Shown here piece after piece: positions 9,767 through 58,306 of a stretch of 64,000 bases of DNA (position 1 is the stretch's first letter; every line of letters starts with the position of its first letter). The DNA is from Parcubacteria group bacterium (GTDB taxonomy: Bacteria > Patescibacteriota > Minisyncoccia > Moranbacterales > UBA9337): NCBI GenBank assembly GCA_041662245.1, contig JBAZSW010000004.1, forward strand, positions 75,454 to 139,453, given 5' to 3'. The position numbers were made by a program, and so were the translations under genes. The notes under the pieces were generated by a model. It was given only the letters and a program-made list of their open reading frames with translations. It made no database searches and was not told the origin of the DNA.

Positions 9767-10552
9767 TTAAGCTTTCCATCTATCATTAATCGCATTTCTA
9801 ACAGGAGCAAATGTTTTGCGGTGAATTTTACAAGGACCATTTTGTTTTAATGCTTCAATATGAATTTTAGTGCCATAACCCTTGTGTTTGGCAAATTGAT
9901 AGGCGGGATATTCTTTATCAAACTTATTCATTATCCTATCTCGCGTAACTTTGGCAATTATAGAAGCAGCTGAGATTGATTTTACTAATTTATCACCGCT
10001 AATTATTGCTTTTTGCTCTAGCGAAAAATTAGGAATCATTTTGTCCCCATCTACTAAAATTATTATTTTTTTCTGCTCTTTAATTTGAGATTTTAAATCT
10101 CCAATTGCTTTTTTCATTGCTAGAAATGTCGCCTCCAAAACATTTATTCTATCTACCGTTTCGTGATTACAAATCCCCACTCCCACATAAAAATTTTCCA
10201 TAATAAATCCAAAAACCTCCTCTCGTCTTTTCTCGCTCAATTTTTTAGAATCTCTGATTAAATCCCACATCCTTTCCTCTCCCCCTCTCCGAGGGGGAGA
10301 TGTCCGAAGGACAGAGGGGGTGTTTCCTATTTTTTTATCATTTGAATTTGATTTGAAATTTGAAATTTGAAATTTTGAATTCCGAACCACTACCGCCGCT
10401 GCCACTACTGGTCCGGCCAGCGGTCCCCTGCCTGCCTCGTCCACACCCACCACAAAATCCCAACCTTTACCAAAAAGATCTTTTTCTAATTCAAACCTGT
10501 CAATCGCAACTGACGGGTTCAAAGTAGATTCTAATTTTACTTTATTTTTCAT
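9767..10552 (-). CDS. rnhB: ribonuclease HII carrying an in-frame insertion of about 40 aa
   Basis: VVGVDEAGRGPLAGPVVAAAVVV catalytic motif and DSKKLSEKRREE; 261 aa vs about 200 typical; extra segment RNSKFQISNFKSNSNDKKIGNTPSVLRTSPPRRGGEERMW lies between these two motifs. Confidence 0.9.
   Translation of the reverse strand: MKNKVKLESTLNPSVAIDRFELEKDLFGKGWDFVVGVDEAGRGPLAGPVVAAAVVVRNSKFQISNFKSNSNDKKIGNTPSVLRTSPPRRGGEERMWDLIRDSKKLSEKRREEVFGFIMENFYVGVGICNHETVDRINVLEATFLAMKKAIGDLKSQIKEQKKIIILVDGDKMIPNFSLEQKAIISGDKLVKSISAASIIAKVTRDRIMNKFDKEYPAYQFAKHKGYGTKIHIEALKQNGPCKIHRKTFAPVRNAINDRWKA
10265..10384 (-). repeat. about 120-nt composite element inserted in-frame in rnhB: GC-rich hairpins plus a TTGAAAT tandem-repeat module
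   Basis: coding-strand hairpins GTCC-TTCG-GGAC and CTCCCCCTC-GGA-GAGGGGGAG; TTGAAAT x4; absent from E. coli and B. subtilis RNase HII at this position. Confidence 0.7.
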
Positions 10553-12295: not shown

Positions 12296-12450
12296 TATCC
12301 CGCCCAAAACCTTAACTAACTAATCGAGCTGGTAGAAAATAAGCCGAAGGCGATTTAGAGAACAGCCTATCTGCAAACTCCGGCTGACCCTGGGTTTTGT
12401 TGCGGGATATTTTTCGCTCTAAATTGCAAGGAATAAACCCCTCCCCAACC

Positions 12451-12493
12451 CCTGCCTACCGGCAGGCAGGCTTCCCTTGCTAAGGGCAAGGGG
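12451..12493 (+). promoter_or_regulatory. two adjacent GC-rich hairpins in the dnaE leader
   Basis: CCTGCC-TACC-GGCAGG and CCCTTGC-TAAG-GGCAAGGG, 36 nt before the dnaE ATG in a 30% GC context. Confidence 0.45.
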
Positions 12494-12528
12494 TCAAGAA
12501 GAATAAAATTATTATAATCAAAAAAATT

Positions 12529-16035: not shown

Positions 16036-16043
16036 AATTAAAT

Positions 16044-16069
16044 TCCGAGCGCCCAATTGGGCGCTCGGA
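16044..16069. terminator. perfect 11-bp palindromic hairpin between convergent dnaE and HAD gene
   Basis: TCCGAGCGCCC-AATT-GGGCGCTCGGA; U-run present on minus-strand side. Confidence 0.65.
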
Positions 16070-16087
16070 GATTAAAACTGACAAAGA

Positions 16088-31198: not shown

Positions 31199-32308
31199 CT
31201 ACAGCATCTTAAACTTCGTATACTCCTTCTGGATATAATCTTTTATTTTATCTTTAAAAATATCTCTATTAAATTTCAATGATTTTTCCCTAATATAATC
31301 CTCATCAAATTTAACACCTTCAAATTTTTGAACTGCTTCGACGATGCCTTCTGGCGTTTGCGTTTCAATAAAAACTCCTGTTTTCCCCTCTTCCATATTC
31401 TCTACAATATCTCCTCCACGATAAGCAATCAGCGGTCGACCTGATGCCATAGCTTCAATAGCGACAATCCCAAAATCTTCTTCCTGAGGAAAGATAAAAG
31501 CGCGACAATTAGCGTAGTATTTAGGCAAATCTTCATCAGATATTCTTCCTAAAAATTCAATATTTTCCTTAGCCATTTTTTTTAGCTTTTTCAATTCTGG
31601 ACCACGCCCGCTAATTTTTAAAGGCAACCCTAGTTTATTAAAGGCTTCAATAACAATGTCATTTCTCTTATAAGTTATCATTCTTCCCACAATCAAAAAA
31701 TAATCCCCTCTTTTTTTCGCATCTTTTTCTACATAAAAATTGTTTACCGCCACAGGAGGATTAATGACTACCGCTTCTTTTTTATAATATTTTTTTATTC
31801 TTCTGGCGACAAAATTAGAGTTGGCGATAAATTTATCTACTCTTTGTGCGCTTACAGAATCCCAGACTCGAATATAATTCATAAAAAATGGCACCAATTT
31901 CTTAATAAAAGACGGCAATCCAAAATCATCGGTATATTTTTGACAATCATCCCAAGCGTAACGCATTGGAGTGTGCATATAACAGATATGTAGCGTTTCT
32001 GGTGAGGTAATAATTCCTTTAGCGTAACTAGATGAATCCGAAAGAACAATGTCGTAAACAGAAAAATCAAATTGTTCAATAGCGCTTGTCATAAAAAGTG
32101 GAAAGATACGATGTTTTCTCCGCGCCAAAGGAAACTTTTGCAAAAAAGAAGTATGAATTTTTTTGTTCTCAAAAAAACCATGCATCAACTTTTTTTCATA
32201 CATAATTGTATATATATGAGCCTCGGGAAAAATTTCCGTAAAACATTCCAGAACTCTTTCCGCTCCACCATATTGAACTAAATAATCATGGACTAAAGCA
32301 ATTTTCAT
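31199..32308 (-). CDS. glycosyltransferase, GT-B fold (GT4-like)
   Basis: C-terminal EDFGIVAIEAMASGRPLIA E-x7-E-like motif. Confidence 0.8.
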   Translation of the reverse strand: MKIALVHDYLVQYGGAERVLECFTEIFPEAHIYTIMYEKKLMHGFFENKKIHTSFLQKFPLARRKHRIFPLFMTSAIEQFDFSVYDIVLSDSSSYAKGIITSPETLHICYMHTPMRYAWDDCQKYTDDFGLPSFIKKLVPFFMNYIRVWDSVSAQRVDKFIANSNFVARRIKKYYKKEAVVINPPVAVNNFYVEKDAKKRGDYFLIVGRMITYKRNDIVIEAFNKLGLPLKISGRGPELKKLKKMAKENIEFLGRISDEDLPKYYANCRAFIFPQEEDFGIVAIEAMASGRPLIAYRGGDIVENMEEGKTGVFIETQTPEGIVEAVQKFEGVKFDEDYIREKSLKFNRDIFKDKIKDYIQKEYTKFKML

Positions 32309-32660
32309 AACACTACTAATTACCTGCCCGCCAATGCCAATTCATCTTGGCATCAACAATAGCGTTGTAATAGATTAATTTTTTATTTTAAATATAGTTA
32401 ATATTGATAGATATGGCGGGCGGGAGAATTAAATACGAATATACAAATTTCTTTTATTATAAATTAAATAATTAAATAATAAATTATTATATAAATTTCC
32501 AATTTCTAAAAACCATATAGCAATTCACTCCGCACCAACCAATTGTATCATCTCGAGTGGAGCGATAGCGGAATCGAGAGATTTCAGTAAACAATAGATT
32601 CGAGTCATCAGCCAACAGTCATTAAAAAAAGTATTCCTAATTCTTAATTATCTCAAATTC

Positions 32661-33590
32661 TTATTTTCCTAAATTCCCAAATTCACAATACGCTAAATAG
32701 GTATTTTCCAAAAGACACGCCACTGTTACGGGCCCCACTCCTTTGGGAACCGGAGAAATCAAGCAATCAGTTTCTTGAAAACTTTTCAAATCAACATCTC
32801 CAAAAACTTTTTCTGCTTCTTTGATTATTCCACCATCAATTATAATTGCATCATTTTTTGTCATTTGAGAATTTATTAAACTTTTCTTTCCACAAACAGT
32901 TATGATAATATCTGATTTCTTTAAAATATTCCCGTTTCCCAAATCATCACACAAGATGTAGCTTGCTTTAATTCCAATTTTTTCCAATGTCTTTTGCATT
33001 ATTTTGCCAAAATCATCTGATTTACAAATAATAGTTGCCTTTTTACTTTTAAAAAACTCCCGTCTATCGAAATTGTCATCCTTGCGAATGCGGGGATCTC
33101 CGTACTCATAACTGAGATTCCCGTTTTCACGGGAATGACAAGATAATAAAGCACTTTCAATCATTTTTATAATCGCCTTGGGAAAAACTGGAAAAATAGT
33201 TTCTTGATTATTAAAAAAACATTTTTGATTCTCATCACAAAACCCATCCACATCTTTCTCTGGATTAATGGCATTAATAATTTTATGCTTATCTAATTTT
33301 TCCGGCAGAGGCAATTGCACAATTAAACCATGAATATTTTTATCTTCATTAATCTCAGCTATTTTATTTAAAATAACCTTTTCCTCCACATTGGCATCAT
33401 ATTCATAAAGTTTAAAATTCATCCCGATTTCTCTAGCTACTTTTTCTTTTAAACTTACATAAATTTGAGAAGCCTTATTTTTGCCAACTAAAATAACCGC
33501 CAAAGTGGGCTTGAGTTCTTCCTTTTCTATTTTCGCTTTGATATTACTCAAAATATCATCCGCAATCTCTTTCCCTTTTATCAACTGCAT
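32661..33590 (-). CDS. folD: bifunctional methylenetetrahydrofolate dehydrogenase/cyclohydrolase with an in-frame insertion of about 29 aa
   Basis: LAVILVGKNKASQIYVSLKEK, DVDGF, PVPKGVGPVTVACLLEN; extra segment SCHSRENGNLSYEYGDPRIRKDDNFDRRE between the NAD-binding Rossmann entry and KKATIICKS. Confidence 0.9.
   Translation of the reverse strand: MQLIKGKEIADDILSNIKAKIEKEELKPTLAVILVGKNKASQIYVSLKEKVAREIGMNFKLYEYDANVEEKVILNKIAEINEDKNIHGLIVQLPLPEKLDKHKIINAINPEKDVDGFCDENQKCFFNNQETIFPVFPKAIIKMIESALLSCHSRENGNLSYEYGDPRIRKDDNFDRREFFKSKKATIICKSDDFGKIMQKTLEKIGIKASYILCDDLGNGNILKKSDIIITVCGKKSLINSQMTKNDAIIIDGGIIKEAEKVFGDVDLKSFQETDCLISPVPKGVGPVTVACLLENTYLAYCEFGNLGK
33075..33139 (-). repeat. 65-nt GC-rich imperfect palindrome inserted in-frame in folD
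   Basis: arms GTCATCCTTGCGAATGCGGGGATC and GATTCCCGTTTTCACGGGAATGAC (17 of 24 complementary) plus internal hairpin ATTCCCG-TTTTCA-CGGGAAT. Confidence 0.7.
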
Positions 33591-33596
33591 ACAAAG

Positions 33597-34085
33597 TTAA
33601 TCCTTATGGACTTTATCAATAAATTTCACATTAAATCTTGCACCATGAAATAAAGTCGCAAAATCACGTTTTATATTGGCCTCAACTTCCTGTCTAAATT
33701 CATTAGGAATTGCATTGTTCCTAATCAAAGGACACTCGTCATCCCAATAATATAAATGAACAATCTTTTTATCAAAATCAATATCTTTCCAATCTACTGC
33801 AAAAGGATATATTTTACAATCAATAGGTCGAGGATCAATATCTTTATTAATTGAATACTTTAAAAATTTGCAGTCCTTGCCGTCTGAGCAATTTTCAAAA
33901 TTCACTCTATCTTTTTTAAATTTTATTTTAATACCCAGAGAAGTGATGTGATCTTTCATTCTTTCATGAAAAGCAAAATATTCATCAACCCATTCTTCCA
34001 CTCTATAATCATCACAACAAGTATTTTTGCATTTATTTTTCTTACATCCTGCTAACTTACCCTCCATATATTGATTTTTTGACAT
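33597..34085 (-). CDS. hypothetical Cys-rich protein
   Basis: CKKNKCKNTCC cluster; no assignable domain. Confidence 0.35.
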   Translation of the reverse strand: MSKNQYMEGKLAGCKKNKCKNTCCDDYRVEEWVDEYFAFHERMKDHITSLGIKIKFKKDRVNFENCSDGKDCKFLKYSINKDIDPRPIDCKIYPFAVDWKDIDFDKKIVHLYYWDDECPLIRNNAIPNEFRQEVEANIKRDFATLFHGARFNVKFIDKVHKD

Positions 34086-34149
34086 AATTTTATAAATTCA
34101 TCTTGCTATTTTACTTAATAATATTAACACAAAGCTAAAAAATCCGCTA

Positions 34150-34199
34150 TTGACTTTTGTCCTAAAATGTGCTATGGTTGAAAGTCAGTATCGGATAGC
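34150..34199 (+). promoter_or_regulatory. sigma70-like promoter with flanking inverted repeat (candidate operator) for the phosphatase gene
   Basis: TTGACT-17 nt-TATGGT; IR CCGCTATTGACTTT ... AAAGTCAGTATCGGATAGC; strong SD AAGGAGGTG at 34245. Confidence 0.5.
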
Positions 34200-34258
34200 T
34201 TTTTTATTTTTTTCAATCGCCCATACGGGCAAACGATTCATATATAAGGAGGTGTATC

Positions 34259-34885
34259 ATGAGTGGAGGATGCGGTAGTCGCAGGGAAACAATGGCAGTC
34301 AGAACAGTCTATGCAATGCGTCATGGACAAAAAGGATTTGGATCTGACGATCCATCTTTAACCGAAAGAGGTCGCGAGCAGGTAGCTGAAGCGGTAAAGA
34401 AATATCTAACTGGCGTCAATTTTAAGATAATATACCACGGAACGCACTTCCGACATCAAGAGAGTACTGAAATCGCCAAGGAAGCGCTAGAAATTTCGTC
34501 TGATACTTTTCAAACTCCGCTACTGTCACTCACAGATAGCATGAACGATGCCGCTAATCAGTGTGCTATGGCTGGCCTCAAGCATCCTGATGGACTAGCA
34601 GTCGGTTTCCGTGTTGACACCTGGATTAAAACGAATAGGGTATTGATGAATGATTGTTTTGAGCAGTTCTATGATTTCCTGCAACAAATTCCCAAAAAGA
34701 TGAAAAATGTCTTGGCGATATCCAGTTCGCCCATCATAGAATCCGTCACTGTCAATCCAGAGAAAACTTGGCTTCTAGGCGAATGTGGCATCATCAAATA
34801 CATTATTGATGATGAAGGAACGATCATATCATCGGAAACAATTTTCGAGGGCTTCTTCGAGAAACCTCCACAAAAAAATCTATGA
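34259..34885 (+). CDS. histidine phosphatase superfamily (PGAM/SixA branch) protein, GC-anomalous
   Basis: RHG catalytic motif VYAMRHGQKG; visibly higher GC (about 45%) than surroundings. Confidence 0.7.
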   Translation: MSGGCGSRRETMAVRTVYAMRHGQKGFGSDDPSLTERGREQVAEAVKKYLTGVNFKIIYHGTHFRHQESTEIAKEALEISSDTFQTPLLSLTDSMNDAANQCAMAGLKHPDGLAVGFRVDTWIKTNRVLMNDCFEQFYDFLQQIPKKMKNVLAISSSPIIESVTVNPEKTWLLGECGIIKYIIDDEGTIISSETIFEGFFEKPPQKNL

Positions 34886-34929
34886 TCCATCACCACCTGA
34901 ATGCTAAGATATTATCTTGTGCTTTCAAA

Positions 34930-34968
34930 TAGGGTTTTGACTAGTTCGTCAAAACCCTATATTTTTTA
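34930..34968 (+). terminator. rho-independent terminator after the phosphatase
   Basis: AGGGTTTTGAC-TAGTTC-GTCAAAACCCT then TATATTTTTTAT. Confidence 0.75.
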
Positions 34969-35343
34969 TACGCCACATTTTATTTTGCCCTCCCAAAGTG
35001 AACCCAAAAAAATAAAGCATTTTCAAATACATATCAGATACATCACCACACTTTACGGAGAAAATAAAATAAATCAACTCGAAGGGAGCGTTAAAAAACT
35101 TTGTTACGGAGTGGAATGGAGTCTGAAGTTTTAGCAAGTAAGAGTTAGATTTATTTATATTTTAGAAGTACGTGTGGCAGTTTTTTTGTAACCTTTTTTT
35201 GCTGTCAAAAAAAGTTAGTGAGAAATTGCTTATGATAAAGCCTTACATTTTAAATATACACGCCCGACTCAAAGCTGGTAGTTTTTTGACTAAGGCAAAA
35301 TGCTCAACCTCAAAGGCTCCCGAAATTGAGCCTCTGTTAATTT

Positions 35344-35808
35344 TTAAGTTATTTTTGATCCATATCTCCCCCGATATTTAATCTTTATTGTTTTATCAGG
35401 ATTGTATCTATTATATAAATCAATAAAACGTTCTTCATCCAAGTAATATTTCCCACCGTTAAATTTGTTTTTGAAATTTTTAATTAACTTATAATATTTC
35501 TCCAATTCCACAAATAGCCCATCTTTTCTAGATTTTTTTAGTTTTTCTTTTGAGCCAGAATCAACTAAAGATAAAAATTCTAATAATGACATTGGGCACT
35601 TTAATAAATGCAATCTTCTTTCTATCGCTTCGGGGGCAATTTTTTCGCAATAAATTTGTCCAGTTAAATATAAAATCGCCCTAGCCTCATTTAGATTTTT
35701 CCAAGTAGGTTTTTTCAAAATCTTCTGATATCTGTCCCAAAGTTTGTTTAGTCTTTCTTTAATCTTCTCCACATCTAGCAGATAAGTATTTTTAAGAAGT
35801 ATTTGCAT
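35344..35808 (-). CDS. hypothetical protein
   Basis: complete ORF; no recognisable domain. Confidence 0.35.
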   Translation of the reverse strand: MQILLKNTYLLDVEKIKERLNKLWDRYQKILKKPTWKNLNEARAILYLTGQIYCEKIAPEAIERRLHLLKCPMSLLEFLSLVDSGSKEKLKKSRKDGLFVELEKYYKLIKNFKNKFNGGKYYLDEERFIDLYNRYNPDKTIKIKYRGRYGSKIT

Positions 35809-35896
35809 ATTTTGATTGATTAAAAAAATTTTATTTATTCGACACTCGTTCTTTTCAAAATCTTCACTACCCCATTATCCGCCCCAGTCATCCCAG

Positions 35897-38107
35897 TTAT
35901 GCAACGGGATAAATCCGACGGGGCTTCGCTTTATCTTTTTTGTCATTGGAATTTTTATCGCTATCGGCTATCCTTGCTCTTTCTAATATTTTAACAACAC
36001 CTCGCTCAGCATCCACTTCCACCAAATCTCCATCGTGCAAAACTTGCGTGGCGATTTTGGTCCCGATTATACAAGGTTTTTTAAGTTCGCGAGCCACAAT
36101 GGCAGCGTGACAAGTTATACCACCTTCATCAGTCACAAAAGCACCAGCTTTTTTCATAATAGACATGTATCTTGGATCCGTCATAGACGCAACTAATATT
36201 TCTCCTTCTTGAAAATCTTTTGCCTCTTTAATTAATTTTATAATTCTCACTTTCCCTTTTGCCTTGCCCACACGAGCAATGCTTCCTTTTATTTCATCTA
36301 AACTATATTTTTTATTTCTTGTCTTGTCGATTTCATCTAATATTTTACCTGACTTATTTTGAGAAATAGTTTCTATTCCTTCTTTAGAATATTTGCAAAA
36401 GAAAAAATCTTTGCGTTTTAAATAATTATTAGGTAGCTCACCTGAATTTATAAAAGCATCAAGTTCCTCCCCGCTTAGATATTCTAAAGAATCTTTTTCA
36501 ATATTTTTTTCTTCTTCTATTTTATTCAACAATTCTCTTTCCAAAGTTATTCCATCTCTATGAATATTTTCATATCTTTTTCTTGTTTCTATACACAAAT
36601 CTTTTGTTTCCTGACTCAAGTCATCGAGATATTCTGGAGCATAAACTGATACCATAATAATAGCAAACAATTCTTGTATAAAGTTATGAAGTTTTTTAAT
36701 AGATTTTGTCAGATCGACCTGATTATTTTTGAAAAACTCTTCAGCTTCTAAAAGTTTTTTATTATTTTTTGCAATAAATCTTTTATAGTCATCAATATCA
36801 TTTTTTTGAAAATATGCCTTTGGGATTCCCTTATAATCAACTACCGGCAAAAAATGATAAAATATTCCATTTTCCATCAGAGAATACCAAGGATTTGTCA
36901 TGTAATTAGTCACTCTTTCAAAACTGTCACCAAAAACTTCTCTTGCTATAACAGAAGCAATTAATATAGTGTAATCCCTCTGATGTTTTTCATAGATTAA
37001 ATTTTCTTTCTCTACATACTTCATTAAAGTCGTTATCGGTCGACTTTGGGTGATATAAAATTTTCCACCTTCCTGCGCCCATTCGATATCGCAGGGAAAG
37101 CTGTAATGGTTTTCGATTTTGATGATTAAATCTGAAAGTTCGATAATTTCTTTTTCGTTTAATACTTGAGAAGAAGCTTGAGGTTCAGGGATATCTCGCC
37201 ACTCGTTGGCTGAGATTTCTCCACTTCCAAATCTTTGAGTACAAAGATTTGTTCGGTCGAAATGACATGCTCTATATAATCCTCTGTTTTGCGTGCTGAC
37301 ATTAATATCAACAATCGCTTCTCTAATTCTTAATTCATCATTCTTGATTCCCAACTCCTCATTCTTAATTCTTAATTCATAATTCTTAATTCCAGTCTTA
37401 TCCACCACATAACTGTCCGGGGTAACTGATCCCGATACAATTGCTTCGCCAAGTCCAAAGCCTGCTTCAATGATAAGCTGGTTATAATCTTGGGTCACTG
37501 GATGCACCGAAAAAGCGATACCTGATTTCTCAGATTGAATCATTTTTTGCACCACCACTGCTACCGATATTTTCTGCTTGTGCAATTCTTTTTCAAAACG
37601 ATAGAAAATGGCCCGCGAAGTGAAAAGCGATGCCCAGCATTTTTGGACATTTTTTAATAAATCTTTTTCTGTTGTATTAAGATAAGAATTAAGTTGTCCC
37701 GCCCAAGCCGCCTCAGCTCCGTCTTCAGCGGTGGCACTGGATCTTACAGCAACAAACTCTGCGTCTAGTTTTTTAAATTCTTTTTCAACTTCTTTCTCAA
37801 TCTCTACTGGAATTTTTGCTCCAAGAATTAAAGCTTGGATTTTTTCTGACGCTTTTTCAACCGTATGCATTTTTTGCGTATCCACTGTGTCAAGGATAGC
37901 GGAAATTTCCACATTTAAATCAGTTATTTCTAAAAATTTTTCAAAAGCCCCAGCAAGTACCACAAAACCCGAAGGAACTGGATTGCTAGCAGACTTGTCC
38001 GCCGAAGCTTTAGCGAAGGCGGAAGTCATTTCGCCAAGGGACGCTCCCTTGCCTCCGGCAATCAGAACATCGTTCTTATCTAATTCTTTAAAATTTTTAG
38101 TAAACAT
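35897..38107 (-). CDS. PEP-utilising-enzyme family protein: PPDK-type ATP-grasp N-terminus plus C-terminal phospho-His swivel domain; no PEP/pyruvate TIM-barrel (PEP synthase-like or rifampin phosphotransferase-like architecture)
   Basis: N-term GGKGASLGEM; C-term GGITCHAAIVARELKKPCIIGT; contains a 21-nt tandem repeat encoding ELRIKNE / ELGIKND / ELRIRE. Confidence 0.75.
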   Translation of the reverse strand: MFTKNFKELDKNDVLIAGGKGASLGEMTSAFAKASADKSASNPVPSGFVVLAGAFEKFLEITDLNVEISAILDTVDTQKMHTVEKASEKIQALILGAKIPVEIEKEVEKEFKKLDAEFVAVRSSATAEDGAEAAWAGQLNSYLNTTEKDLLKNVQKCWASLFTSRAIFYRFEKELHKQKISVAVVVQKMIQSEKSGIAFSVHPVTQDYNQLIIEAGFGLGEAIVSGSVTPDSYVVDKTGIKNYELRIKNEELGIKNDELRIREAIVDINVSTQNRGLYRACHFDRTNLCTQRFGSGEISANEWRDIPEPQASSQVLNEKEIIELSDLIIKIENHYSFPCDIEWAQEGGKFYITQSRPITTLMKYVEKENLIYEKHQRDYTILIASVIAREVFGDSFERVTNYMTNPWYSLMENGIFYHFLPVVDYKGIPKAYFQKNDIDDYKRFIAKNNKKLLEAEEFFKNNQVDLTKSIKKLHNFIQELFAIIMVSVYAPEYLDDLSQETKDLCIETRKRYENIHRDGITLERELLNKIEEEKNIEKDSLEYLSGEELDAFINSGELPNNYLKRKDFFFCKYSKEGIETISQNKSGKILDEIDKTRNKKYSLDEIKGSIARVGKAKGKVRIIKLIKEAKDFQEGEILVASMTDPRYMSIMKKAGAFVTDEGGITCHAAIVARELKKPCIIGTKIATQVLHDGDLVEVDAERGVVKILERARIADSDKNSNDKKDKAKPRRIYPVA
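37315..37395 (-). repeat. tandem repeat of about 21 nt (about 3.5 units) inside the PEP-utilising enzyme gene
   Basis: plus strand shows repeated ATTCTTAATTC; protein shows heptad units ELRIKNE-ELGIKND-ELRIRE. Confidence 0.6.
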
Positions 38108-38191
38108 AATCTGAAAAATAATAGTTTAAAAGGCACCCACAAATAAGTACCTTTAAGTATATAACATCTTATATATAAAACAAATTCTGTT

Positions 38192-39223
38192 TTATTCTTT
38201 AGCTTTTGCTGCCTTTATTACTTCTTTCGAAATAGCGTTAAATACTTTTTGATTTTCTTTTAGATAAAGCTTGGCTTTTTCTCTGCCATTCCCCAACTTC
38301 TCCTCACCATAAGCATAGGAATTTCCAGATTTTTTTACCACTTCAAATTTAACTCCCGTATCCAACAAATCTCCTGAACGAGAAATTCCTTCATTATACA
38401 TAATATCAAACTCAGCTGTTTGAAAAGGTGGCGCTACTTTATTTTTTACCACTTTGACTTTTACTCGATTACCTACTACTTGCTCGCCTGATTTAATTTG
38501 AGCACTTCTACGCACTTCAATTCGCACTGAAGAATAAAATTTTAAAGCTTGCCCACCACTAGTAGTTTCTGGATTACCAAACATTACTCCAATTTTCATC
38601 CTTATCTGATTAATGAAAATAACCACTGTGTTAGATTTGGACACAATCGGAGTCAATTTTCGAAGCGCCTGTGACATCAATCTAGCTTGGCGACCTACGT
38701 GTTGGTCTCCCATCTCTCCTTCAATTTCTGCGCGAGGAACCAAGGCTGCTACAGAGTCAACTACGATCAAATCTACTGCATTACTACGCACTAGCGTTTC
38801 TACAATATCCAAAGCCTGTTCTCCTGAATCTGGTTGAGAAATTAAAAGTTCGTTAATATCCACTCCTATTTTTTTAGCATAAGAAGGATCCATGGCATGT
38901 TCCGCATCTACAAAAGCCACTGCTCCACCAGCTTTTTGTGCATTGGCAGCAATGTGCAAAGATAGAGTTGTTTTACCGGATGATTCTGGACCATAAATTT
39001 CAATTACTCGTCCACGAGGCACCCCACCAATTCCCAAAGCTAAATCAAGTGAAATAGAACCCGTAGGGATAGATGCTACATCTACATTTTTGACATCTCC
39101 CAATTTCATTATCATTCCATCCCCAAATTTTTGCCTGATTTCATCCACCACACTGTCTAATCTTTTTTCCATTGAAGAAAAATTACCACTTCCCATTTCC
39201 TTTGGTTTCTTTTTTTCTTTCAT
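38192..39223 (-). CDS. recA: recombinase RecA
   Basis: Walker [10 protein letters not shown]; RecA core throughout. Confidence 0.95.
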
Positions 39224-57481: not shown

Positions 57482-58306
57482 TTATCTCATCACCGCCACT
57501 CCAATAATAATTATTGCCAATACCAACCGATACCAAAAAAATGTTTTATAACTATAATTTTCAACAAATTTAATCAGATATTTTATAGCAACATAACCAC
57601 TAAAGGCCGAAAAAATAATTCCCATTAAAATTTCACTACTAATTCCAGCTTTCATTAATTCTGGAATTTTAGTAAGAGTAGCTCCAAAAATTATCGGGGT
57701 TGAAAGTAAAAAAGAAAATCTGGCCGCACTCACCCTATCTAATCCCATTGCCAATCCAGCTGAAATGGTCGCTCCTGAACGAGACACCCCAGGGATAATT
57801 GCCACCGCCTGAGAGAGTCCAATGATTAAAACGTCTTTAATATTTATTTTATCTAATTGTCTTTTTCCTAAAGCGTATTTATCTAATAAGAATAAAACTA
57901 ATCCAAAAAAAGCTAAGGCAAAAGCAATTATATAGGGACTGCGAAAAATAGTTTCTACATAACTTTCTAAAAAAAATCCAATCACTGCTCCGGGAATTGT
58001 GCCAATCATAAGTAACCACAAAATATTTTTATTATACGAACAGGCCAGTGCCCTATCCCTACCTTCACATTTTTTATTGTAGGAACGGGGTAGTACCCCG
58101 TTCTTAAAAATTTCCACCCAATCTTGCCAAAAATAAATTACTACCGCCAAAAGTGTCCCCGCGTGAAGTGCCACATCAAAAGCCAGTCCTGGGTCTTTCC
58201 AATGAGTAAAAAAGGGAACCGAAACAAGATGTGCCGTGGACGAAATTGGCAGAAATTCTCCCAAGCCTTGTACGATTCCTAATGTGATTGATTGCAACAA
58301 ATCCAT
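57482..58306 (-). CDS. uppP: undecaprenyl-diphosphatase with an in-frame insertion of about 15 aa
   Basis: GIVQGLGEFLPISSTAHL and PGVSRSGATI motifs; extra NKKCEGRDRALACSY encoded by a GC-rich palindrome. Confidence 0.9.
   Translation of the reverse strand: MDLLQSITLGIVQGLGEFLPISSTAHLVSVPFFTHWKDPGLAFDVALHAGTLLAVVIYFWQDWVEIFKNGVLPRSYNKKCEGRDRALACSYNKNILWLLMIGTIPGAVIGFFLESYVETIFRSPYIIAFALAFFGLVLFLLDKYALGKRQLDKINIKDVLIIGLSQAVAIIPGVSRSGATISAGLAMGLDRVSAARFSFLLSTPIIFGATLTKIPELMKAGISSEILMGIIFSAFSGYVAIKYLIKFVENYSYKTFFWYRLVLAIIIIGVAVMR
58041..58103 (-). repeat. GC-rich palindromic element inserted in-frame in uppP
   Basis: GAACGGGGTA-g-TACCCCGTTC near-perfect palindrome, plus CCTAC...GTAGG stem, in a 30% GC gene. 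Confidence 0.7.

What the first reader, a model, noticed from the sequence alone, without database searches (positions are those of the whole stretch)
33075..33139. folD interrupted in-frame by a 65-nt imperfect palindrome
About 29 residues (SCHSRENGNLSYEYGDPRIRKDDNFDRRE) are inserted immediately before the second Rossmann glycine-rich region (KKATIICKS). The DNA is two inverted arms, GTCATCCTTGCGAATGCGGGGATC and GATTCCCGTTTTCACGGGAATGAC, around a 17-nt centre. GC content and symmetry are alien to the surrounding gene.
Basis: seen in the sequence. Interest (0 to 1): 0.75.

Follow-up and report, generated by a model that had tools for sequence, protein, structure and literature searches.

The report
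Known palindromic repeat inside folD
The folD gene of this candidate-phyla-radiation bacterium carries, in frame, a pair of small hairpin repeats of a widespread known family (Neisseria dRS3/NTS, Rickettsia RPE-6). The pair is translated as a floppy extra loop between the enzyme's two domains, which makes it a new host for an already described phenomenon.

Summary
Window 33075-33139 is an imperfect palindrome with 51% GC in a gene of 30% GC. It lies in frame in folD (32661-33590, minus strand), where solved FolD structures have about 5 residues.

It is not an unknown element. Each arm is itself a tagged hairpin: TGTC, an 8-bp stem starting AT, a 4-nt loop, and a CTC tail. These are the defining features of CGTC-1 REPs (= Neisseria dRS3/NTS = Rickettsia RPE-6). 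One arm matches the published Ssn-related motif exactly. The two units form a 'head-head' dimer with tags outside, the usual arrangement for this family.

An intergenic copy in another Moraniibacteriota genome is 84% identical. The same unit sits in frame in alr, leuS, dus and other genes in metagenomes. It also flanks small GIY-YIG (Ssn-type) nuclease genes, including one in a CPR genome.

The closest folD ortholog has an empty site. Other orthologs carry unrelated palindromes at the same codon. AlphaFold models the insert as a disordered loop.

Verdict: this is a selfish or neutral intragenic REP dimer, a new member of a known kind. What mobilises it in this lineage was not shown.

The parts
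32661..33590 (-). folD coding sequence (309 aa), the host gene. It is intact and in frame through the insertion.
   Evidence: ORF list. Pfam THF_DHG_CYH at 2.5e-36 and THF_DHG_CYH_C at 2.9e-26. Matches to solved FolD structures. AlphaFold2 model with mean pLDDT 89 and pTM 0.87.
33045..33143 (-). Linker block with no counterpart in the empty-site ortholog. It encodes SCHSRENGNLSYEYGDPRIRKDDNFDRREFFKS, a net gain of 26 codons relative to L004. The exact ends are not resolved.
   Evidence: Codon-level comparison of 11 orthologous folD genes. PDB alignment gap at query aa 146-179. pLDDT is below 50 for aa 157-173 and the region is modelled as a loop between helix 135-156 and strand 184-189.
33114..33140 (-). 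Left CGTC-1/NTS-type unit, first in the mRNA: TGTC | ATTCCCGT | GAAA | ACGGGAAT | CTC.
   Evidence: Tagged-hairpin scan with 0 mispairs. Matches the core of the published SRM motif and fails the full motif only at its last degenerate base. Differs from the Neisseria NTS consensus by a compensatory C-G to T-A change in the stem (PMC11893778). Stem covariation across CPR copies.
33101..33113 (.). Spacer between the two units: 13 nt, or 17 nt if the arms are taken as 24-mers.
   Evidence: CPR copies of the same dimer have spacers of 13-20 nt, with one of 35 nt. The spacer diverges faster than the units between the window, L001 and L241.
33074..33100 (+). Right CGTC-1/NTS-type unit, in the opposite orientation: TGTC | ATCCTTGC | GAAT | GCGGGGAT | CTC. 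It has two G.T wobbles on its own strand, which read as C.A mismatches on the mRNA strand.
   Evidence: Exact match to the full published SRM motif HGTCWYN(0-2)YYVSBRHN(0-5)WNVSBRGN(0-2)RNCYNB, against 0.03 matches expected in shuffles. Tagged-hairpin scan.
33062..33073 (-). Conserved flank ATTTCGATAGAC, just 3' of the dimer in the mRNA. It accompanies the unit in the folD orthologs and at an unrelated locus (L178).
   Evidence: Alignment A2. The window, L001 and L003 folD and the reverse strand of L178 share ATGACAAT(A/T)TCGA(A/T)A(A/G)AC.

Best explanation
The 65-69-nt palindrome is a 'head-head' dimer, with tags outside, of two CGTC-1-type REP hairpins. This is the family called dRS3/NTS in Neisseria, RPE-6 in Rickettsia conorii, and 'Ssn-related motif' (SRM) in the 2025 Ssn paper.

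It is one copy of a dispersed, non-autonomous repeat. This copy came to lie in the linker between the catalytic and NAD(P)-binding domains of FolD. It survives there because it is in frame, free of stop codons, and sits in a surface loop that tolerates extra residues. It is therefore translated as a disordered insert of about 23-33 aa and has no demonstrated role in FolD.

Shown here:
- membership of the family by its defining sequence and structure features;
- dispersed copies in related genomes;
- an empty site in the nearest ortholog;
- in-frame copies of the same unit in other conserved genes;
- the unit-GIY-YIG-unit architecture, in Dependentiae and in one CPR genome.

Inferred, not shown:
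- that spread of the units depends on recognition of the single-stranded hairpin by an Ssn-type GIY-YIG nuclease or another trans-acting enzyme;
- that the patchy distribution among folD alleles reflects homologous recombination between co-occurring populations, plus a preference of such elements for sites that already form hairpins.
For: Defining features of the family. Tag TGTC, 8-bp stem starting A-T/T-A, 4-nt loop and short tail are present in both arms, with tags outside. These are the criteria read from PMC3733652. The right arm is an exact match to the SRM motif of PMC11893778 and the left arm matches its core. There are only 2 such units in 64 kb, both in folD, against about 0.03-0.13 in shuffles.

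Hairpin maintained across copies. In nine distinct CPR sequence variants of the unit, 100% of stem cells pair and 4 of 8 pairs show changes on both sides. Shuffled and slid controls score far lower.

Dispersed copies. L241 is an intergenic copy in a Moraniibacteriota MAG and is 58/69 identical to the window element. That is as close as the orthologous folD copy in L001, at 57/69. L178 is a second locus in the same MAG that holds the P0002 folD. Compact head-head dimers also occur in Kuenenbacteria, Falkowbacteria, Nomurabacteria and another Patescibacteria MAG.

Empty site and alternative inserts at the same codon in orthologs.

In-frame copies in other genes. Units matching the search pattern GTCATCCTYGCGAATGCGGGGATC, or partner units dimerised with them, lie inside alanine racemase, LeuRS, Dus, a class-V aminotransferase, a PALP enzyme and an amine oxidase in metagenome contigs.

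Nuclease association. The unit-GIY-YIG-unit arrangement was seen in L125, in L299 (Dependentiae, with the same unit as folD's right arm) and in L372 (Ca. Magasanikbacteria, a CPR lineage).

Structure and reading frame. The insert is modelled as a disordered loop between confidently folded domains. All length differences among orthologous inserts are multiples of three, including a 30-nt net length difference in L001, whose left unit has a second hairpin nested in its loop.
Against: No second copy and no GIY-YIG gene lie in the 64-kb window. No GIY-YIG gene was found in the ~110 kb of Moraniibacteriota folD-ortholog loci or the ~40 kb of other CPR loci searched by tblastn. The rest of this genome could not be read, so multi-copy status and a mobilising enzyme are unproven for this organism.

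No target-site duplication or clean insertion boundary could be defined. The window and L003 have linkers of equal length, and L003 keeps an ancestral-looking NLEVKNK where the window has the left unit. A simple cut-and-paste history therefore does not fit.

The element is shared by two folD clades that are not sisters. That requires loss, recombination or repeated insertion.

The arms are better conserved than the spacer between the window and L001. This could also reflect selection on a DNA or RNA structure.

Translation of the insert is inferred from frame conservation only.
Confidence: 0.8

Rival explanations
1. The insert is a lineage-specific functional loop of FolD, selected at the protein level, for example as an interaction or regulatory loop between the two domains.
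For: P0002 shares the insert with similar residues, GDPRIR(K/E)DDNFDR. The reading frame is maintained in all orthologs.
Against: The closest ortholog lacks it and others carry unrelated sequences at the same codon. The same DNA occurs in intergenic positions elsewhere at 84% identity. The residues are exactly those encoded by a known DNA repeat in one of its open frames. AlphaFold gives pLDDT below 50. P0003/P0005 have lost half of it.
Confidence: 0.05
2. The hairpin is kept because it acts at the nucleic-acid level within folD. One option is an mRNA structure of about -30 kcal/mol that pauses ribosomes at the domain boundary or modulates mRNA stability. Another is an ssDNA site for an Ssn-type nuclease that limits recombination of incoming DNA, as shown for NTS in Neisseria.
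For: The fold is strong on both strands. The arms are more conserved than the spacer and stems show compensatory changes across copies. The insert sits exactly between the two domains. NTS repeats modulate transformation in Neisseria (PMC11893778). A recombination breakpoint lies near the linker among P3/P5/P9.
Against: Stem conservation is a property of the whole dispersed family, not of the folD copy. In P0003/P0005 the left arm no longer pairs and in L011 the right arm is decaying, yet the gene is intact. Close relatives manage with no insert or with unrelated inserts. No Ssn gene was found in this lineage's sampled DNA.
Confidence: 0.12
3. The segment is an intervening sequence that is removed from the mRNA or bypassed by the ribosome. 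The stem would bring the two flanks together, so the mature FolD would lack it.
For: The base of the long stem juxtaposes the two junctions.
Against: All orthologous variants stay in frame and free of stops despite substitutions and indels of 3 and 30 nt. There is no Rfam match for any intron or ribozyme family in the window. The same unit is in frame in six other conserved genes.
Confidence: 0.02
4. The palindrome is a chance feature or an assembly artefact.
For: None found.
Against: Zero of 200 shuffles fold as well. The motif is expected 0.03 times in shuffles. The identical protein is on record from NCBI, JGI and Logan assemblies. Related inserts occur in independent assemblies, with 24 contigs for P0002.
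Confidence: 0.01

Closest known systems
CGTC-1 tagged REPs (Di Nocera, De Gregorio and Rocco 2013, PMC3733652), equivalent to Neisseria dRS3 and Rickettsia conorii RPE-6
   Same: Tag (C/T)GTC, 8-bp stem starting AT, 4-nt loop and short tail. Predominantly head-head dimers with tags outside. Heterodimers occur. Intragenic copies are known, and dimers encode 20-30 aa.
   Different: The host is a Patescibacteria/CPR (Moraniibacteriota-like) genome, a phylum not among the five listed for CGTC repeats in 2013. The tail is CTC rather than CCA. The spacer is very short (13-17 nt, against mostly 20-100). Copy density is low here, with 2 units in 64 kb.
Neisseria Transformation Sequence (NTS) / Ssn-related motifs and SsnA GIY-YIG ssDNA nucleases (PMC11893778, 2025)
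   Same: The left arm differs from CGTCATTCCCGCGMAVGCGGGAATCYRG in the hairpin only by one compensatory stem pair. The right arm matches the degenerate SRM motif exactly. The same unit flanks small GIY-YIG genes in the NTS-ssn-NTS arrangement (L125, L299, L372).
   Different: No ssn gene was seen in this window or in its relatives' sampled DNA. NTS are described as intergenic clusters that modulate transformation, whereas this copy is translated inside an enzyme. Cleavage and any effect on transformation are untested.
Rickettsia palindromic elements (RPE) and 'protein-coding palindromic repeats' of Wolbachia (Ogata et al. work as cited in PMC3733652 and PMC1779305)
   Same: A palindromic repeat inserted in frame in a conserved housekeeping gene, absent from orthologs, at a position compatible with the fold, in a reduced, AT-rich, host-dependent bacterium.
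   Different: RPE-1 is longer (about 100-150 nt) and belongs to other sequence families. This one is the short CGTC-1 dimer type. No Rickettsia sequence was compared directly here.
REPINs / GTAG REPs mobilised by RAYT transposases (Bertels and Rainey 2011, PMC3116915)
   Same: Two inverted REP hairpins with a short spacer acting as one non-autonomous unit. The autonomous version is a gene flanked by the same hairpins.
   Different: The tag is TGTC, not GTAG. The associated gene, where seen, is a GIY-YIG nuclease and not a HUH tyrosine transposase. Transposition has never been shown for CGTC units.

Membership tests
CGTC-1 REP (dRS3 / RPE-6 type) | Unpaired 5' tag CGTC, which the family description allows to be TGTC or CCTC | tested here: met
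   Both arms start TGTC (33140-33137 on the - strand; 33074-33077 on the + strand). Criterion read from PMC3733652.
CGTC-1 REP (dRS3 / RPE-6 type) | 8-bp stem whose first two pairs are A-T and T-A, with a 4-nt loop | tested here: met
   ATTCCCGT/GAAA/ACGGGAAT and ATCCTTGC/GAAT/GCGGGGAT, with 0 mispairs when G.T is allowed. 100% of stem cells pair in the nine distinct CPR unit variants, and 4 of 8 pairs show double changes.
CGTC-1 REP (dRS3 / RPE-6 type) | Short unpaired 3' tail, consensus CCA | tested here: inconclusive
   A tail is present but reads CTC in both arms and in most of the other CPR copies. The description says 'most' tails fit CCA.
CGTC-1 REP (dRS3 / RPE-6 type) | Units commonly paired as head-head dimers with tags outside | tested here: met
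   In the window, tags are at both outer ends. Among 120 metagenome loci with this unit there are 43 HH pairs against 7 TT pairs. Definition of HH from PMC3733652.
CGTC-1 REP (dRS3 / RPE-6 type) | Repeated, dispersed copies in the same genome | tested here: inconclusive
   Only the two folD units lie in the 64-kb window, and the rest of this genome was not available. In related Moraniibacteriota MAGs other loci do carry the same units (L178, L241).
Ssn-related motif (SRM) / NTS-Ssn system | Match to HGTCWYN(0-2)YYVSBRHN(0-5)WNVSBRGN(0-2)RNCYNB | tested here: met
   The right arm 33074-33101 matches in full. The left arm fails only at the last base (A where B is required). Shuffles give 0.03 matches.
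Ssn-related motif (SRM) / NTS-Ssn system | A small single-domain GIY-YIG (ssnA-type) gene in the genome, typically flanked by the motif | not testable with these tools
   None in the window or in the ~110 kb of Moraniibacteriota folD-ortholog loci and ~40 kb of other CPR loci searched, but the genome is incomplete here. The arrangement was seen elsewhere: L125, L299 (Dependentiae) and L372 (Ca. Magasanikbacteria).
Ssn-related motif (SRM) / NTS-Ssn system | Site-specific cleavage of the single-stranded motif by the cognate Ssn nuclease | not testable with these tools
   Requires biochemistry.
Protein-coding palindromic repeats (Rickettsia RPE type) | In-frame insertion in a conserved gene, absent from close orthologs | tested here: met
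Protein-coding palindromic repeats (Rickettsia RPE type) | Insertion at a surface position compatible with the fold | tested here: met
   AlphaFold2 gives domains with pLDDT above 90, and insert aa 157-173 below 50, modelled as a loop between helix 135-156 and strand 184-189. This is a prediction only.
GTAG REP / REPIN-RAYT | GTAG tag and an associated RAYT (HUH tyrosine transposase) | tested here: not met
   The tag is TGTC. The flanked genes found are GIY-YIG.
Classical MITE | Terminal inverted repeats plus a target-site duplication | tested here: not met
   The outer T...A belongs to the tag in all copies. No duplicated flank was recognisable in the window or in the five other CPR dimers.

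The most novel reading that the evidence does not exclude
The folD interdomain linker is a recurrent landing site for at least three unrelated palindromic element families in Moraniibacteriota: the CGTC/NTS dimer, a GC-rich 'TPSV..SPFEYKGGE' hairpin, and an AT-rich palindrome of about 90 nt. One hairpin is nested in the loop of another.

The window also has hairpin inserts in rnhB and a PEP-synthase-like gene. Together this would mean that CPR genomes, like Rickettsia, are broadly colonised by translated palindromes, and that insertion is targeted to DNA that already forms hairpins. An Ssn-type GIY-YIG nuclease might drive this.
Probability: 0.3. Interest if true: 0.6.

Novelty: new member of a known kind. 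Interest (0 to 1): 0.4.

Why it matters
The finding ties an odd-looking insert in a core metabolic enzyme of an uncultivated CPR bacterium to a repeat family already studied in Neisseria, Rickettsia and many other phyla.

It shows that translated REP dimers are not confined to Rickettsiales. The same unit sits in frame in folD, alr, leuS, dus and other genes in environmental genomes.

For annotators, peptides such as CHSRE(N/S)GNL and DPRIREDD or DSRFRGND in CPR proteins mark repeat-derived loops and not domains.

For mobile-element biology, the folD site offers natural filled, empty and alternative-insert alleles in co-occurring populations. These could be used to test whether CGTC/NTS units still move and whether Ssn-type nucleases are involved.

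Tried and rejected
- blastn-short of the element against the window found no second copy.
- Rfam at gathering thresholds and ARAGORN found nothing in the window, so there is no known RNA family or tRNA-like origin.
- PF27163, listed for two orthologs, is a weak Rossmann-type hit (YmtS_Ross, marked weak). It is absent from the Pfam copy used and unrelated to the insert.
- A Pfam scan of the insert peptide found nothing.
- The first regular expressions for GIY-YIG were too strict. A looser one plus tblastn found Ssn-like genes only outside the Moraniibacteriota loci.
- Supplementary tables of the Ssn paper are not held.
Copy number in this particular genome therefore could not be measured.
- Exact insertion boundaries, a target-site duplication, and the order of events were examined and left unresolved, including whether L003's left half is decayed or was converted.
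- The uppP hairpin could not be called an insertion, because E. coli UppP also has a long loop there.
- Literature searches for palindromic or REP elements in CPR/Patescibacteria returned nothing relevant.

Full report
**Observation.** folD is the 309-aa ORF at 32661-33590 on the minus strand. It carries both FolD Pfam domains. An 86-nt stretch around the element (33065-33150) folds as one long hairpin on both strands: -35.2 kcal/mol on the plus strand (z = -5.9) and -30.2 kcal/mol on the mRNA strand (z = -4.4). None of 200 shuffles folds as well. GC is 0.51 against 0.30 for the rest of the gene. Against solved FolD structures, query residues 146-179 face about 5 residues, so roughly 29 residues are extra. 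They lie between the last helix of the catalytic domain and the first strand of the NAD(P)-binding domain.

**Orthologs.** A search of 5.8 billion proteins gave close relatives of 60-67% identity, named Candidatus Moranbacteria where named. Their lengths range from 278 to 336 aa. The alignment and codon-level comparison show that all of this length variation sits at the same linker.
- P0004 is the ortholog most similar to the window (72% protein identity; 83% DNA identity in the N-terminal part). It has an empty site...ALINLETKDN-RRAAIVCKS, as do eight more distant relatives in the alignment (P0012-P0015, P0018-P0020, P0024).
- P0002 carries the same composite as the window, plus a second GC-rich hairpin nested in the loop of the left arm. 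This makes its element 30 nt longer and still in frame.
- P0003 and P0005 carry the right arm only. In place of the left arm they have an AT-rich stretch.
- P0006, P0009 and P0011 carry an unrelated GC-rich hairpin pair, translated TPSV..SPFEYKGGE. P0010 and P0008 hold decayed remnants of it.
- P0007 carries an AT-rich palindrome of about 90 nt.

The insert type does not follow the gene tree built without the linker. Separate trees for the two halves of the gene place P0005 with P0003 upstream of the linker (95%) and with P0009 downstream of it (99.5%). This indicates allelic recombination with a breakpoint near the insert.

**Identity of the element.** Each arm is itself a small hairpin: TGTC | ATTCCCGT | GAAA | ACGGGAAT | CTC (33140-33114, minus strand) and TGTC | ATCCTTGC | GAAT | GCGGGGAT | CTC (33074-33100, plus strand). 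A full-text search for the arm sequence led to the 2025 paper on Ssn nucleases. That paper defines the Neisseria Transformation Sequence CGTCATTCCCGCGMAVGCGGGAATCYRG, which contains dRS3. It also defines a degenerate 'Ssn-related motif'. The right arm matches that motif exactly. The left arm matches its core and fails only at the last degenerate base. These are the only two such units in the 64-kb window, against about 0.03-0.13 expected in shuffles.

A second paper (PMC3733652) classifies these hairpins as CGTC-tagged REPs. The tag is CGTC or TGTC. Family 1 has an 8-bp stem beginning AT and a 4-nt loop, followed by a short tail. The units are mostly arranged as 'head-head' dimers with the tags outside. 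CGTC-1 is stated to be the same as Neisseria dRS3 and Rickettsia conorii RPE-6. Intragenic copies are reported, and dimers encode 20-30 amino acids. The folD element meets each of these features, except that its tail reads CTC and not CCA.

**Dispersed copies.** Six of the genome hits are CPR:
- two Moraniibacteriota MAGs, the very assemblies that hold the P0002 and P0007 folD genes, with the hits on other contigs;
- Kuenenbacteria, Falkowbacteria, Nomurabacteria, and another Patescibacteria MAG.

Five of these six loci carry compact head-head dimers with spacers of 13-35 nt. The L241 copy lies between divergent genes. It is 58/69 identical to the window element and has the same heterodimer of an ATTCCC-type and an ATCCTC-type unit. 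The orthologous folD copy in L001 is no closer, at 57/69. L178 shares with the folD copies the 12-13 nt that follow the right unit. Across the nine distinct CPR sequence variants of the unit every stem position pairs, and four of eight pairs show changes on both sides. This is well above shuffled and slid controls.

**In-frame copies elsewhere.** Among 120 metagenome loci found with the pattern GTCATCCTYGCGAATGCGGGGATC, 43 head-head and 7 tail-tail dimers were found. The search listed 28 cases where a unit lies inside a long stop-free frame. Pfam confirms that the surrounding frames are real genes: alanine racemase (a dimer), leucyl-tRNA synthetase, dihydrouridine synthase, a class-V aminotransferase, a PALP enzyme (a dimer), an amine oxidase, and a methyltransferase. 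In-frame occupancy of conserved genes is therefore a general habit of this unit family.

**Associated nuclease.** A 103-aa GIY-YIG ORF is flanked directly by two outward-tagged units in L125. Homologs sit next to units in further loci. In L299 such a gene is flanked by units identical to the right arm of L001 and L241, which differs by one base from the window's right arm. Its protein is recorded from a Candidatus Dependentiae bacterium. A 68%-identical homolog is recorded from Candidatus Magasanikbacteria, a CPR lineage. There the gene lies between valS and tyrS and is again flanked by two outward-tagged units, one of which has an expanded loop. No such gene was found in the window or in the Moraniibacteriota DNA sampled. 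For this organism the link to a nuclease is therefore an inference.

**Consequences for the protein.** AlphaFold2 with the ortholog alignment gives a confident FolD fold (mean pLDDT 89, pTM 0.87). Residues 157-173 score below 50 and are modelled as an unstructured loop between helix 135-156 and strand 184-189. Two of the three sense frames of the element are open, and folD uses the CHSRENGNL...DPRIRKDD frame. All indels among orthologous inserts are multiples of three. This argues that the segment is translated and not removed.

**Interpretation.** The best explanation is a non-autonomous CGTC-1/NTS-type REP dimer that persists in a permissive interdomain loop. It is translated as a disordered insert, it decays under AT pressure in some lineages, and it is shuffled among alleles by recombination.

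Rivals are weaker for these reasons:
- A functional protein loop is unlikely, given the empty and alternative alleles and the intergenic copies of the same DNA.
- A cis-acting RNA or ssDNA role cannot be excluded, but the lineages that lost half of the palindrome do not support it.
- Splicing or ribosomal bypass is contradicted by the conserved reading frame.

Unresolved points:
- the exact boundaries of the insertion and the lack of a target-site duplication;
- why three unrelated palindromes occupy the same codon;
- how the tip of the right hairpin changed from an 8-bp stem with a 4-nt loop (window, L001) to a 9-bp stem with a 5-nt loop (L003) while staying palindromic;
- what, if anything, mobilises the units in this lineage.

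**Novelty.** No paper on REP or palindromic elements in CPR was found. The kind of element and its in-frame occurrence are already described for Rickettsia and other bacteria. This is a new member, in a new host phylum, of a known kind.

Noticed in passing
window 9767-10552 (-), hairpins at 10257-10328: RNase HII carries an in-frame insert of about 35 aa: query aa 58-96 face 4 residues of T. maritima RNase HII (3o3g). The insert contains a GC-rich double hairpin translated TPSVLRTSPPRRGGEE. This is the same hairpin family that occupies the folD linker in orthologs L008, L009 and L005.
   Followed up: partly
window 35897-38107 (-), hairpins at 37985-38080 and 37170-37265: The PEP-synthase-like gene has a 10-aa hairpin-encoded insert (FAKASADKSAS) inside the conserved GGKGA.LGEM...PVP.GF motif, relative to PDB 8a8e. 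It also has a second extra block at aa 260-310. The first hairpin resembles the one nested in L001's folD element.
   Followed up: partly
window 35877-35924: A GC-rich hairpin containing a decayed GTCATCCC...GGGAT unit supplies the last ~10 codons and the stop codon of the PEP-synthase-like gene.
   Followed up: no
window 57482-58306 (-), hairpin at 58049-58124: uppP holds a GC-rich hairpin (GGAACGGGGTAGTACCCCGTTCT, translated NGVLPRS...) in a cytoplasmic loop. E. coli UppP has a loop of similar length there, so an insertion could not be established.
   Followed up: partly
window 12425-12512 and 16038-16075: An intergenic pair of GC-rich hairpins lies just upstream of dnaE (CCTGCCTACCGGCAGGCAGG and CCCTTGCTAAGGGCAAGGGG). 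A near-perfect 38-nt palindrome lies just after dnaE and may be a terminator or another repeat family.
   Followed up: no
L001 10440-10620 (folD of P0002): A second hairpin (CGCCCGCTTCGCCAAAGCTTCAATGAGGCGAG, translated PLRQSFNEAS) is nested in the loop of the left CGTC unit. The element is 30 nt longer than the window's and stays in frame. The upstream unit of the Magasanikbacteria ssn gene (L372 2947-2995) likewise has an expanded loop.
   Followed up: partly
L003, L011 and L009 folD genes: Trees of the two gene halves disagree. P0005 groups with P0003 upstream of the linker (95%) and with P0009 downstream (99.5%). This points to homologous recombination with a breakpoint near the insert.
   Followed up: partly
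L299 6784-7680 (Candidatus Dependentiae contig): An Ssn-type GIY-YIG gene is embedded in a cluster of at least five CGTC units plus a truncated one. The whole 897-nt cluster is stop-free in one frame, so gene callers fuse the repeats and the nuclease into one 160-298-aa 'protein'.
   Followed up: partly
window 31199-39223 compared with L006 and L007: In relatives, recA is immediately followed by folD. In the window and in L001 several genes lie between them, including the PEP-synthase-like gene and a His_Phos_1 gene.
   Followed up: no
window 32520-32610: A moderately GC-rich imperfect hairpin (-17 kcal/mol) lies in the spacer between folD and the downstream glycosyltransferase gene. Its nature was not examined.
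   Followed up: no
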